Assembly: GCA_037308085.1 (NCBI GenBank)
Contig: CP147779.1
Location: 2,624,001-2,688,000, forward strand
Length of the DNA: 64,000 nt
Direction: 5' to 3'
From: Promethearchaeati archaeon SRVP18_Atabeyarchaeia-1
GTDB lineage: Archaea > Asgardarchaeota > Atabeyarchaeia > Atabeyarchaeales > Atabeyarchaeaceae
A program made the position numbers and the translations under genes. Of the stretch, positions 3,558 through 9,760 are shown piece by piece; position 1 is the first letter of the stretch; each line of letters begins with the position of its first letter. The notes under the pieces are model-generated. The model worked only from the letters and a program-made list of their open reading frames with translations. It made no database searches and was not told the origin of the DNA.

Positions 3558-4535
3558 ATGAAGGGTGTCGATATCCAAATGGGGAACGTCGTGGTGGCGC
3601 TTGGCGATGCAAATATAGATATCTGCATGATTGGCGGCGGACCTCCTCGGCCCGGGCATGAGACCCTGGTTCAAGACATGGTGATCTCGCCCGCAGGCTC
3701 CACTGGATACTTTTCAATGGCAATTTCAAAGCTTGGAGACGAGTGCCGATTCGTAGGCCGCCTTGGAGGGGACTACTTTGGCAGATATGTTCTCGACAAG
3801 ATGAAGTCATTCGGCATAACGACAAATTACGTCAGAATTGATCCCGACGTCCCGACCGGTGTCACCGTCTCGGTCGTCTCAGAGGGAGGCGAGAGAGCGC
3901 TTGTATCTTACTTAGGTCCCACTGAGCTCTTCAACATGGCTGACATTGATGAAAGGGCGTTAATGGGGGCGAGGCATCTTCATATTGGCGGCCTTCCGCT
4001 TCTAAAGGCTTTGCAGCCCTCTGTCCCAGTTCTCTTCATGAGGGCGCGGAAAGCAGGGATGACTACCTCGCTGGATACGGGATGGGATCCAAGTGGGCGT
4101 TGGGACATCAATGAGGCCCTTCAGTGGGTGGACATCTTCCTCCCAAACGAGGAAGAGGTAGAAGCCATCACGAATGAGAAAAACATCGGCCGAGCCGCAT
4201 CGAAGCTTCTTGCTAAGGGTCCGTCCACCATTGTCATTAAGCGAGGAGCTCTCGGATGTACCGTGGCCAATCGCGAGAGAAGCGTGGACGTTCCTGCCTT
4301 CAAGGTTAATCCTGTAGACACTACTGGTGCTGGAGACGCATTCGACGCGGGATTCATATTCGGCTTCCTCAGAGGGAAGCCTTTGCTGGAATGTGCAGAA
4401 TACGGGAACGCTGCAGGCGCGCTGAAAACGCTGAAGCCAGGTTGCGATGGCCTGCCAGATCTCAGATCCGTTGAGTCACTGATAGGCGGTGGCAAGATAC
4501 CAGAGCTTGGCGCAGTTAGAACGGCAAGTCGCTAG
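3558..4535 (+). CDS. PfkB-family carbohydrate kinase
   Basis: PNEEE, VIKRGALG, VDTTGAGDAFDAGF signature. Confidence 0.95.
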   Translation: MKGVDIQMGNVVVALGDANIDICMIGGGPPRPGHETLVQDMVISPAGSTGYFSMAISKLGDECRFVGRLGGDYFGRYVLDKMKSFGITTNYVRIDPDVPTGVTVSVVSEGGERALVSYLGPTELFNMADIDERALMGARHLHIGGLPLLKALQPSVPVLFMRARKAGMTTSLDTGWDPSGRWDINEALQWVDIFLPNEEEVEAITNEKNIGRAASKLLAKGPSTIVIKRGALGCTVANRERSVDVPAFKVNPVDTTGAGDAFDAGFIFGFLRGKPLLECAEYGNAAGALKTLKPGCDGLPDLRSVESLIGGGKIPELGAVRTASR

Positions 4536-4765: not shown

Positions 4766-5650
4766 ATGGCTAACGAGTGTCTCGCCGATTTCGTAAAGAA
4801 ACGGCGCAGGATTCGTGAAAAGAAAAAGGGAATCGAGGAAGAGATAGCCAATCAAATAAAGGGCAGCAAAGAATTTGAAGAGCTCAAGACAGCCCTCGGG
4901 GAAGGAAGCATGGAGAAGGCGAAATCGGTCCTTGCCCACTTTGCGAACTATGCTCCAAGTGACTACGTCACTAGGATATCGGTTCAGGATGTAGTATCCA
5001 AAAAAACACTGTGCAAAGTCGGGCAGGCGGTGTCCTCCTTGAAACCGGCGATAATGGAGCTTGCCCTTCCGTGCGATGGATCCTGCATACTCAAGGTTGA
5101 GGCGTCGCCGGCCGCCGATGTCGATTCCTCCTTCAGCGTTGTCTGGCTTGGCTTGGAGGCATCTGGGAAATCCAGTCTGATTGAGAGGATAAGGCAAGAC
5201 GAGTTCATCTCTCCCGCGCCCACAATAGGACTTAACGTCGCATCCTCTGTCCTCGAAGGAATCAAGATAGTGAACTGTGACCTCTCAGGACACAAATCAT
5301 TCAGAAGCATTTGGGATTCCTTGATTGTTGGCAATCCTGACATACTGGTCTATGTAATAGATGGCTCAGAACATTCCCAGCTAGATGAAGCCCAGAAATT
5401 GCTGACAGGCTATGTTCTGAATACCGAACTCTTAAAGGGCATTCCAATGCTAGTTGTACTGAGTAAGCAGGACGTCGAGGGAGCAATTAAGGGAGAACAA
5501 ATACTGGCTAATCTGAACTTGCCTCAGTTGATATGTGATCGAGAATGGAAGCTAGTTCAAGCTAGTGCGAAGACAGGCGAAGGCATTTCAGATATGTTGG
5601 GATGGATGTTTGAACAAATCAGACTGAAAAAGGGTGTGGGCTCCGCGTGA
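4766..5650 (+). CDS. Arf-family small GTPase with ~120-aa N-terminal extension
   Basis: G1 GLEASGKS, G2 PTIGLN, G3 DLSGH followed by FRSIW, G4 SKQD, G5 SAKTGEG, terminal LGWM helix typical of Arf/Arl. Confidence 0.9.
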   Translation: MANECLADFVKKRRRIREKKKGIEEEIANQIKGSKEFEELKTALGEGSMEKAKSVLAHFANYAPSDYVTRISVQDVVSKKTLCKVGQAVSSLKPAIMELALPCDGSCILKVEASPAADVDSSFSVVWLGLEASGKSSLIERIRQDEFISPAPTIGLNVASSVLEGIKIVNCDLSGHKSFRSIWDSLIVGNPDILVYVIDGSEHSQLDEAQKLLTGYVLNTELLKGIPMLVVLSKQDVEGAIKGEQILANLNLPQLICDREWKLVQASAKTGEGISDMLGWMFEQIRLKKGVGSA

Positions 5651-6081
5651 GCGTTGGAACCTTTATCGCCAAAGCAGTGGATCCAAGCAAGAAGTTATTT
5701 ACAGTTCCTTTCAATACACTTGATGAGCCAATGGAAACAGTCAAAGAGATGGCTGCAAAGGTTTTTGAGTTTACGACGTTCATATTGTCGAAGAGGTATC
5801 CGGGTCAGGATAAACCCACTTCGAATGAGGTAACGCTAGACCTACCCAAGGGTTACTATGGATACGCGATCTCATTCAGCAGCAAGTCTGGTCAGAACCT
5901 CATTCTCGGCATAGCAGTGAAGTCAGTCTCAATGGCTCTTTTCGCCTACGCAGTTGATGCATCTAGGGCCAGGATTATCGCTGTCGTTGATAGGCTCAAG
6001 GATGATCTTCCAGTTCGAGTTGGGCTCATAAGAGATCTCCATCTTACGCTGGAAAGAGAATTCGAGATATTCAAGCTCTAG
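5647..6081 (+). CDS. Hypothetical protein, predicted longin/uDENN-like fold
   Basis: 4-nt GTGA overlap with the GTPase stop; apparent b-b-a-b-b-b-a-a pattern by eye. The CDS is well supported; the fold is inference. Confidence 0.65.
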   Translation: MSVGTFIAKAVDPSKKLFTVPFNTLDEPMETVKEMAAKVFEFTTFILSKRYPGQDKPTSNEVTLDLPKGYYGYAISFSSKSGQNLILGIAVKSVSMALFAYAVDASRARIIAVVDRLKDDLPVRVGLIRDLHLTLEREFEIFKL

Positions 6082-7627: not shown

Positions 7628-8620
7628 TCAGGTTACAACTTCTTTCACTGCTTGAATGATCTTCTTCTCGTCGGGTATGAAGCTACTTTCGAGTACGGGA
7701 CTGAATGGGACTGGCGTATCAGGTGCCGTCACCCTCTTTAGGGGGGCGTCGAGGTAGTCGAACGCCTCTTCGAGCACAATAGCCGCGATCTCGGCGCTGA
7801 TACCCGCCGTCTTGCAGTCTTCGCTCACTATGACGGCGCGTCCTGTCTTCTTAACCGACTCCCCTATTGTCTTTCTATCGAAGGGAACGAGTGTTCTTGG
7901 GTCAATGACTTCAGCGTTTATGCCCTGACCCGTCAGTTCCTTCGCAGCGTTAAGGGCCTTTGGAACCATGTAGAGCACTGGTATTATCGTTACATCTTTT
8001 CCCTCCTTCTTGACATCCGCCTTGCCGAAGGGAATCGTGTAGTCCTCATCAGGCACGGCGCCTTTGACCCCGTAGACCAGTTTATGCTCGGCGAAAAGCA
8101 CGGGGCTATTTCCTCTTATGGCAGTCTTCATGAGACCCTTCGCATCAGCTGGCGTCGATGCAACAACAACCTTGAGCCCAGCTGCATGCATGAACCATGA
8201 TAGATAAGTTGATGAGTGATGAGCCGCAACCTGTGTGCCGGCGCCGAACGGGGTCCTGATAACCACTGGAACACTGACCTGGCTGCCAAACATGTAGTGA
8301 ATCTTGGCAGCCTGGTTTACGATCTGATCAACAGCTAGCGCTATAAGGTCGCCAAACATGATTTCGACGACGGGTCTCATCCCAGTCATGGCCGCACCCA
8401 CTGCGGCACCTATGAATGTGTTTTCCGAGATTGGCGTATCCCGCACCCTTTCGTCTCCGAATTCATCAGCTAAGCCTTGAGTCACCTTGAACGCACCTTG
8501 CCAGTACTTGCCGATGTCTTCGCCCATGAGAAAAACGCGATTATCTCTCTTCATTTCCTCGCGGAGGGCTTCCCTGATTGCGTCTCGGACGGTTATCTCT
8601 CTCATTTCCTTGTTCACCAC
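7628..8620 (-). CDS. pdhB: 2-oxoacid (pyruvate/acetoin) dehydrogenase E1 beta subunit
   Basis: GEDIG, RVRDTPISE, GMRPVVEIMF, FDYLDAP. Confidence 0.95.
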   Translation of the reverse strand: MVNKEMREITVRDAIREALREEMKRDNRVFLMGEDIGKYWQGAFKVTQGLADEFGDERVRDTPISENTFIGAAVGAAMTGMRPVVEIMFGDLIALAVDQIVNQAAKIHYMFGSQVSVPVVIRTPFGAGTQVAAHHSSTYLSWFMHAAGLKVVVASTPADAKGLMKTAIRGNSPVLFAEHKLVYGVKGAVPDEDYTIPFGKADVKKEGKDVTIIPVLYMVPKALNAAKELTGQGINAEVIDPRTLVPFDRKTIGESVKKTGRAVIVSEDCKTAGISAEIAAIVLEEAFDYLDAPLKRVTAPDTPVPFSPVLESSFIPDEKKIIQAVKEVVT

Positions 8621-8626
8621 GAATTC

Positions 8627-9589
8627 TCAGTCCGCGTAGACGTCTTCGGTAACTGTGCTTGGATCTGGTTGTGGGGCATTCTTGGCAAAGTTGGCCGCTT
8701 CCTCAACCAGCGACTTCACTTCGTCCTCAATCTTCTTCAATTCATCTTCTTTCGCAATTCTTTCTTCCAGTAGCCGGTCCCGCATTCTCTTCACAGCGTC
8801 TCTCTTGATCCACTCATCAACCTCTTCCTTCGGTCTGTAGGTTGCCGCGTCGAATCTAGAGTGACCTTTTAGCCTGTAGGTCTTGCATTCAAGCAGTGTC
8901 GGGCCTTCGCCTTTCCTTGCTCGTTTGACGGCTTCTATTGCGCATCTGTAGACATCAAGAACGTCATTGCCATCAGCAACTGCCCCGGGGATACCGTATG
9001 CGCTCGCCCGATCTGCAACGTTGCTGACGACCATCGCAATGTTCTGGCGGGTTCCCATTGCGTAGAGGTTGTTCTCGCATACGAAGATAACTGGAAGTTT
9101 CCAGACTGATGCCAGGTTGAGCGCTTCGTGGAATGTGCCTTGGTTTGATGCTCCCTCCCCGAAGAATACTGCAACCACTTGATCAGTTTTTCTGAGCCTT
9201 ATCGAGAGCCCGGCCCCCACGGCCAGTGGCAGACCCGAGCCAACTACTCCGGTGGCGCCAAGGATGCCTTTGCTGAAGTCAGTTATGTGCATCGATCCGC
9301 CTTTACCCTTGCAGTACCCCGTTGCTTTTCCCATGAGTTCAGCCATCATTCGGTCGAGCTTTGCACCCTTTGCTACACAATGCCCGTGTCCTCGATGGGT
9401 GCTCTGAATCAAGTCGTCCTCCCGGAGAGCGGAGCATACGCCCACGGCGGTTGCCTCTTCGCCTAGGTATAGGTGGATTGTTCCTGGAATCAGGTTCTGC
9501 CCAAAAAGCTCGTAGACCTTCTCCTCGAAGAGGCGTGCTTCAACCAGTTTTCTATACATGTGCAGAAATGCGTCTTTTGTCAGCTTCAT
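8627..9589 (-). CDS. pdhA: 2-oxoacid (pyruvate/acetoin) dehydrogenase E1 alpha subunit
   Basis: STHRGHGH, GKGGSMH, TPP motif GEGA..24..ENN, TYRLKGHS; start uncertain (ORF open to 9685). Confidence 0.95.
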   Translation of the reverse strand: MKLTKDAFLHMYRKLVEARLFEEKVYELFGQNLIPGTIHLYLGEEATAVGVCSALREDDLIQSTHRGHGHCVAKGAKLDRMMAELMGKATGYCKGKGGSMHITDFSKGILGATGVVGSGLPLAVGAGLSIRLRKTDQVVAVFFGEGASNQGTFHEALNLASVWKLPVIFVCENNLYAMGTRQNIAMVVSNVADRASAYGIPGAVADGNDVLDVYRCAIEAVKRARKGEGPTLLECKTYRLKGHSRFDAATYRPKEEVDEWIKRDAVKRMRDRLLEERIAKEDELKKIEDEVKSLVEEAANFAKNAPQPDPSTVTEDVYAD

Positions 9590-9760
9590 GTCTGTTCCAT
9601 GAACCTTCACAGTCGCAGTACTCACAAGCATCCCCTCGATTGGCGTAAGTAGCTTTGCCGTTGAAGATTTGTTGTGAACCTTCACCGATAAAGCGTTCAG
9701 ACTTAAAAGTCCTTTGTTTGAGTTGGCAGATAATTCAACGATGGTTTTCGCATAGCCTAG

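What the first reader, a model, noticed from the sequence alone, without database searches (positions are those of the whole stretch)
4766..6081. Arf/Sar1/SRbeta-hybrid GTPase coupled to a predicted longin-fold partner: candidate ancestral GTPase-longin module
Seen: the GTPase has Arf-type G1/G2 (GLEASGKS, PTIGLN). Switch II reads DLSGH, with His where Arf has the catalytic Gln, and G4 is SKQD rather than NKQD. A ~120-aa N-terminal extension carries a basic KKRRRIREKKK patch. The next 144-aa ORF overlaps the stop (GTGA) and reads as b-b-a-b-b-b-a-a. Known: Sar1 (DLGGH) and SRbeta (DxPGH) have His at this position, and SRbeta binds the longin (SRX) domain of SRalpha. Longin domains also occur in Arf-recruited COPI/AP coats and in DENN GEFs. 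Inference: a two-gene prokaryotic prototype of the eukaryotic small-GTPase/longin trafficking switch, inserted in a metabolic locus.
Basis: partly seen in the sequence, partly recalled or inferred. Interest (0 to 1): 0.78.

Follow-up and report, generated by a model that had tools for sequence, protein, structure and literature searches.

The report
Asgard Arf GTPase with longin neighbour
An Asgard archaeon keeps an Arf-type molecular switch next to a small longin-fold protein shaped like the regulators of eukaryotic trafficking switches, which gives a matched pair to test, but the switch is a lineage-specific variant and not an ancestor of Sar1 or SRbeta.

Summary
The window is from an Atabeyarchaeia genome (Asgard; inferred). 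4766-5650 encodes an Arf-related (ArfR) GTPase. 5647-6081 folds confidently as a longin domain, closest to Lst4/FLCN, C9orf72 and a Loki longin (Z 11-12); SRX matches weakly. The two genes are adjacent in all three genomes of the order and in every other locus read, down to about 41% identity.

The 'Sar1/SRbeta hybrid, ancestral prototype' reading is not supported. Only the switch II His matches Sar1; switch I is Arf-type; all 74 other Asgard ArfR domains sampled have Gln; a tree test rejects a clade with the one Sar1-like sequence available. SKQD is a strain variant (N in 24 of 27).

New: the 'extension' is a basic helix plus a folded alpha/beta domain resembling bacterial sensor domains, shared with ArfRs of two other Asgard families that have Gln, Lys or Asn at the His site. 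The longin has no conserved arginine finger. Most likely it is a dedicated, non-catalytic partner of the switch regions; binding is inferred, not shown. GTPase-longin links in Asgards are already published, so this is a new variant.

The parts
4766..5650 (+). ArfR (Arf-related) small GTPase gene, 294 aa
   Evidence: Pfam Arf E 1e-31, 110 bits; SRPRB 24.4 bits, under its cut-off; best PDB matches Arl3, Arl1, Asgard ArfR 8OUL
4796..4828 (+). basic N-terminal helix (residues 11-21); no Gly2, not a hydrophobic amphipathic helix; membrane or nucleic-acid contact inferred
   Evidence: 5-9 Lys/Arg in all 27 orthologues, mean hydrophobicity of residues 3-20 negative; low model confidence for residues 1-19
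4832..5110 (+). folded N-terminal domain (three helices, four strands), sensor-like, no Pfam family; shared with ArfRs of two other Asgard families
   Evidence: pLDDT about 65-91; Atlas shape matches in histidine kinases and GGDEF proteins, TM 0.53-0.67; profile hits L068, L067, L070, L034, L035 are the top five of 391 ORFs
5132..5632 (+). G domain: P-loop 5150-5173, switch I 5219-5236, G3 with His 5279-5293, G4 5462-5473
   Evidence: residues 170-192 are 93% conserved against 67% for residues 201-290
5647..6081 (+). stand-alone longin-fold protein, 144 aa, FLCN/Lst4/C9orf72 type, without conserved arginine finger
   Evidence: model pLDDT 84.7, pTM 0.79; VIA-align Z 11.8 Lst4, 11.4-11.8 Loki longin 8YQG, 11.2 C9orf72 complex, 11.1 FLCN complex; motif counts
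3558..4535 (+). pfkB-family sugar kinase, constant upstream neighbour in Atabeyarchaeia (about 200-240 bp gap); membership of the unit not shown

Best explanation
A two-gene unit of Atabeyarchaeia: an ArfR GTPase switch and its own longin partner. Shown: the GTPase keeps the P-loop Lys/Ser, switch I Thr, DxxG and xKxD motifs; the partner folds as a longin; the genes touch or overlap and stay together. Inferred: the longin, probably as a homodimer, cradles switch I/II of the GTP-loaded GTPase on its first helix, as the C9orf72-SMCR8 longin pair does with ARF1. It has no conserved arginine finger, and the GTPase has traded the catalytic Gln for His and lost part of the Arf salt-bridge network, so the complex is more likely a long-lived GTP-state platform or an allosteric (MglB-like) off-switch than a classic arginine-finger GAP. 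The basic helix replaces the Arf amphipathic helix as anchor, and the sensor-like domain may feed a signal into the switch (weak inference). It may work like SRbeta-SRX, but by convergence.
For: Longin fold with C9orf72/FLCN/Lst4 on top. Gene gap -4 to +8 bases in nine loci. Pair kept in 3 of 3 genomes of the order and in metagenome contigs while flanking genes change. Every longin homologue whose upstream DNA was available lies behind the GTPase, or behind a contig-cut ORF at that place (L012). Switch II is nearly invariant. The longin conserves a patch on strand 2 and helix 1: T24 L25 E27 P28 E34 M35 A36 K38; ARF1 switches sit on the parallel longin helices in C9orf72-SMCR8 (PMC8213707). Equivalents of Arf1 Asp26, Arg99 and Glu106 are Glu/Val, never Arg, and Val/Ile/Leu in 27 orthologues (network described in PMC3012027).
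Against: No experiment. All conserved pairs come from one class, so they are not independent. pfkB is equally constant upstream, so adjacency may reflect slow rearrangement. Relatives of the GTPase in Sigynarchaeota have no longin beside them. The likeness of the 151-aa gene behind the family-f7 relatives is not significant. Fold identity to eukaryotic longins is 6-10%, and a fold shows no function. The dimer is assumed.
Confidence: 0.5

Rival explanations
1. Exchange factor: the longin binds the GDP or empty GTPase and switches it on, like TRAPP, Mon1-Ccz1, Fuzzy-Inturned or DENND1.
For: These GEFs match at Z 8-9.5. No arginine finger or conserved GP motif; non-GAP longins lack the GP motif (PMC12290439).
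Against: GAP-complex longins score 2-3 Z higher. Known longin GEFs act on Rab-type GTPases (own knowledge).
Confidence: 0.2
2. Neighbours without direct binding: two signalling genes co-transcribed with pfkB and held by slow rearrangement; the longin works with another GTPase or protein.
For: The genome holds 18 ORFs that match the GTPase profile. pfkB is as constant as the longin. Sigynarchaeota relatives lack the longin.
Against: Overlapping stop/start kept at 41% identity; both families are single-copy with the same narrow range.
Confidence: 0.2
3. Arginine-finger GAP of the FLCN/SMCR8/NPRL2 kind acting with the His, as Sec23 does with Sar1.
For: Closest folds are subunits of these GAP complexes. 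His can replace Gln in catalysis (PMC2265111).
Against: The strand 4-5 loop has Arg in 2 of 14 homologues only. The conserved Arg125 and Arg137 lie at the C-terminal helix.
Confidence: 0.05
4. One reading: a relic of the common ancestor of Sar1/SRbeta with an SRX-like partner.
For: His at the Gln site in 27 of 27; longin partner; SRbeta nests in the Arf family and binds a longin. SRbeta itself could not be placed in the tree.
Against: Switch I is Arf-type (Gly155, Asn157-Val158) where Sar has His-Pro. Relatives with the same N-domain have Gln. AU test rejects Atabeya + Sar1-like, p 0.010, and p 0.025 with the His column masked. Structure Z: Arf1 19.5, HodArfR1 18.8, Sar1 17.0, SRbeta 14.5-15.2. 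SRX TM 0.31. Atabeyarchaeia-only range.
Confidence: 0.05

Closest known systems
Asgard ArfR/AArf GTPases (10.1101/2024.02.28.582541; PMC11914678; PDB 8OUK-8OUN)
   Same: Arf-type G domain; extra N-terminal domains, including longins, are already reported in this clade.
   Different: His for Gln, no amphipathic helix, sensor-like N-domain, and a separate longin gene next door.
C9orf72-SMCR8 (ARF GAP), FLCN-FNIP/Lst7-Lst4, GATOR1
   Same: Best structural matches of the partner; C9orf72-SMCR8 acts on an Arf.
   Different: Stand-alone 144-aa longin, no DENN module, no second subunit in the locus, no conserved arginine finger or GP motif.
SRbeta-SRX (PDB 1NRJ, 2FH5)
   Same: Arf-family GTPase with His at this site (own knowledge for SRbeta) and a longin partner.
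   Different: No membrane anchor, no NG GTPase fused to the longin, weak sequence and shape match.
Sar1
   Same: Switch II His.
   Different: Lacks the switch I His-Pro; clade with a Sar1-like sequence rejected.
MglA-MglB (PMC3199381) and the Asgard roadblock-Rab-like GTPase-DENN operon (10.1101/2020.10.19.343400)
   Same: Prokaryotic operon of a small GTPase and a roadblock/longin-superfamily regulator; this genome has such MglA-roadblock clusters too.
   Different: GTPase is ArfR, partner is a true longin; no Arg just before the switch I Thr as in MglA (own knowledge).

Membership tests
Arf family (ArfR) | G domain closest to Arf/Arl by sequence and shape | tested here: met
Arf family (ArfR) | switch I Thr-x-Gly-x-Asn-[VI]; switch II Arg and Trp | tested here: met
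   T153, G155, V158, R180, W183 in 27/27, N157 in 25/27
Arf family (ArfR) | catalytic Gln and the P-loop Asp / helix-3 Arg / Glu salt-bridge network | tested here: not met
   His 27/27; Glu or Val at 131; no Arg at 205; no Glu at 212
Arf family (ArfR) | N-terminal amphipathic helix directly before the G domain | tested here: not met
   a folded domain precedes the G domain; N-terminal helix is basic; many Asgard ArfRs also lack it
Arf family (ArfR) | interswitch toggle and GTP-dependent membrane binding | not testable with these tools
   needs GDP and GTP structures
Sar1 | His at the switch II Gln site | tested here: met
   H176, 27/27
Sar1 | His-Pro in switch I | tested here: not met
   Gly155-Leu156, 27/27 (feature from PMC3012027)
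Sar1 | groups with Sar1 in a tree | tested here: not met
   AU p 0.010 and 0.025; only one, long-branched Sar1-like sequence from a viral contig
SRbeta | Pfam SRPRB above cut-off and better than Arf | tested here: not met
   24.4 bits (cut-off 25) against 110 for Arf; Gln-bearing ArfRs score 25-45 bits
SRbeta | N-terminal membrane anchor | tested here: not met
   no hydrophobic stretch in the sequence
SRbeta | groups with SRbeta in a tree | not tested
   no SRbeta sequence could be obtained from the tools
longin fold | b-b-a-b-b-b-a-a with five-stranded sheet, no N-terminal roadblock helix | tested here: met
   longins Z up to 11.8, roadblocks up to 8.1
SRX domain | closest shape match is SRX | tested here: inconclusive
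   1nrj_A rank 32 in Foldseek, TM 0.31, rmsd 8.9; other longins match far better
longin GAP catalytic subunit (FLCN, SMCR8, NPRL2) | conserved Arg between strands 4 and 5 | tested here: not met
   Arg in 2 of 14 (site)
longin GAP catalytic subunit (FLCN, SMCR8, NPRL2) | GP motif just before strand 2 | tested here: not met
   Asp at 12 in 11 of 14, Gly-Pro in 2; Lys/Gly-Lys/Arg at 15-16
Cache/PDC/PAS sensor domain (N-domain) | helices followed by an antiparallel sheet matching solved sensor domains | tested here: inconclusive
   Atlas TM 0.53-0.67 to signalling proteins; ArlS_N E 0.04 in one relative; domain not folded alone

The most novel reading that the evidence does not exclude
A genuine cognate ArfR-longin complex in Asgard archaea: a ligand-sensing domain and a His-type active site are regulated by a stand-alone, homodimeric FLCN/C9orf72-type longin without an arginine finger. 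It would be a one-gene model of the C9orf72-SMCR8/ARF interface, present in at least two Asgard lineages if the 151-aa gene of family f7 is a true homologue, and tied to sugar metabolism through pfkB.
Probability: 0.25. Interest if true: 0.72.

Novelty: new variant of a known kind. Interest (0 to 1): 0.5.

Why it matters
Matching Asgard GTPases to their regulators is a stated open problem: operons rarely pair them (PMC10933270), and whether ArfR or Rag GTPases are clients of GAP-type Asgard longins is unanswered (PMC12290439). This locus names a small, soluble candidate pair that can be expressed and assayed. It also shows the Gln-to-His change arising apart from Sar1, so that residue alone cannot be used as an ancestry marker.

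Tried and rejected
Co-folding of the pair with GTP and Mg gave no answer (score 0.28, mark 0.32): no evidence either way. RNA runs: no RNA holder listed. Pfam and PDB sequence searches of the longin and of the N-domain found nothing significant. Atlas feature searches gave no usable hit. N-domain as a decayed copy of the longin: no profile match. Fold searches with the whole GTPase model were filled by G domains, so the N-domain was not tested against solved structures. SRX was not among the 50 rows shown by VIA-align. Homology of the f7 downstream protein: ranks 3 and 5 of about 10,300 ORFs but E 0.6-0.9, hhalign P 0.12-0.17, reciprocal search negative; left open. Family f7 could not be named. 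The N-domain clade on the G-domain tree had support 86/92 and 60/77 in two runs and under 80 in a third. No Rfam match in the window, no promoter or terminator above chance. A paper search for ArfR, longin, Asgard and operon found none; supplements of the two ArfR papers were not read, so these proteins may be listed there.

Full report
Observation. Both ORFs and all quoted motifs are present. The genome is one contig of 2,808,651 bases. The two other genomes of its order are labelled Ca. Atabeyarchaeum deiterrae Atabeyarchaeia-2 and a Promethearchaeati MAG, and Atabeyarchaeia-1 is published as 2.81 Mb (PMC11291895). I infer an Atabeyarchaeia genome.

The GTPase. Pfam Arf scores 110 bits and SRPRB 24.4, under its cut-off. 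The best solved relatives are Arl3, Arl1 and the Asgard ArfR structures. The switch region alone gives the same ranking, with no chain named Sar1 or SRbeta among 60. By shape Arf1 scores Z 19.5, HodArfR1 18.8, Sar1 17.0 and SRbeta 14.5-15.2. In 27 orthologues the His is invariant and residues 170-192 are 93% conserved, but G4 has Asn in 24, so SKQD is incidental. Sar proteins are defined by His at two sites plus a switch I Pro (PMC3012027); this family has Gly-Leu-Asn-Val there. It has also lost the equivalents of Arf1 Asp26, Arg99 and Glu106. All 74 other Asgard ArfR domains sampled, many of them near-copies, have Gln. A clade with the one Sar1-like sequence available is rejected, p 0.010, and 0.025 with the His column masked; that sequence is long-branched and SRbeta could not be tested.

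The N-terminal part. The model shows helices at 23-60 and four strands at 67-115 with pLDDT about 65-91. Atlas shape matches lie in bacterial histidine kinases and GGDEF proteins, TM 0.53-0.67: a lead to a Cache/PAS-like sensor, not a test. The same domain precedes ArfRs in an unnamed family (f7, 3 of 3 genomes, Gln) and in family f21, whose proteins are labelled Sigynarchaeota or Lokiarchaeota (3 of 4; Lys, Asn, or a distorted G3). G-domain trees group these with the Atabeya proteins at modest support. The His is thus best read as a local change in a subfamily that varies at this site. The basic helix is kept in all 27 orthologues and is not a typical hydrophobic amphipathic helix.

The partner. 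With 13 aligned homologues AlphaFold2 gives pLDDT 84.7 and the longin order of elements. VIA-align ranks Lst4 (Z 11.8, rmsd 2.8, 124 residues), a Loki roadblock-longin domain (11.4-11.8), the C9orf72 complex (11.2) and the FLCN complex (11.1) first; TRAPP, DENND1, Mon1-Ccz1 and roadblocks follow at about 8-9.5. SRX is rank 32 in Foldseek, TM 0.31. The Atlas gives an Asgard 417-aa family and C9orf72-like proteins at TM 0.73. Catalytic subunits of these GAPs carry an Arg between strands 4 and 5 and a GP motif before strand 2; neither is conserved here, whereas the strand 2-helix 1 patch and the last helix are.

Pairing. The longin family is small: four representatives among 1.84 billion, and 3 of 400 Asgard genomes, all Atabeyarchaeia. 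In every locus read the two genes touch (gap -4 to +8; one longer gap comes with an odd, N-terminally shortened gene call) with pfkB upstream, while the 2-oxoacid dehydrogenase, GNAT, MFS and PEPCK genes around them come and go. GC content is near the genome's. In family f7 a 151-163-aa gene with a longin-like pattern follows the GTPase; it tops the profile search of 391 ORFs but is not significant. Sigynarchaeota have a different 177-aa gene upstream.

Mechanism. Most likely the longin is the GTPase's dedicated partner and binds its switch regions on helix 1, as the longin pair of C9orf72-SMCR8 binds ARF1, without giving an arginine. The gene pairing and folds are shown; binding, dimer, nucleotide preference, membrane role and ligand are inferred. 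A GEF role and mere neighbourhood are the main rivals.

Known context. ArfRs, longin-ArfR fusions, GTPase-longin fusions, a roadblock-GTPase-DENN operon and FLCN-like longins are all published for Asgards. I found no description of this subfamily or pair. It is a new variant of a known kind, useful as a test pair, not a missing link.

Noticed in passing
L061:1019-1981(-), L063:498-1481, L065:618-1586, L066:577-1548, L062:596-1528: Longin-ArfR fusions (two clusters carry Helarchaeota labels) whose N-terminal part has the GP motif (4 of 5) and a WARG motif like the FLCN/SMCR8 arginine finger, on a Gln-bearing ArfR. A possible built-in GAP, bearing directly on the question left open in PMC12290439; arguably more interesting than the finding itself. 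Not folded.
   Followed up: partly
window:1168-3397 and 7628-9685 (- strand): A 2-oxoacid dehydrogenase set (LplA, E2, E1 beta, E1 alpha) is split by pfkB, the GTPase pair and a GNAT gene; no E3 among the genes checked. In L025 E2 is gone from upstream; in L027 and L028 PEPCK is upstream and the E1 genes are gone.
   Followed up: partly
G000:C1:2261793-2262383(-): A second, canonical ArfR (DVGGQ, short N-terminal helix) lies elsewhere in the genome, followed by a membrane protein.
   Followed up: no
L025 (protein P0023): An orthologue labelled Njordarchaeota in nr sits in the same gene order as the Atabeyarchaeia locus; probably a labelling matter.
   Followed up: no
L103:4455-4988, L067:249-779, L070:1932-2456(-): A conserved 175-177-aa protein with no Pfam match lies directly upstream of the family-f21 N-domain ArfRs, whose catalytic site is degenerate.
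   Followed up: partly
L036-L059: One Asgard family (f9) keeps two ArfR genes in tandem, the upstream one with an altered switch II.
   Followed up: no
L027:4078-4623(-), L028:4096-4632(-); G000:C1:2618665-2619198(-): Another small GTPase lies about 3.4 kb upstream of the pair in some genomes and about 9.6 kb upstream in this one, outside the window.
   Followed up: no
L116:4852-5416 and L117: Viral contigs encode a Sar1-like and an Arf-like GTPase; used only as tree references.
   Followed up: partly
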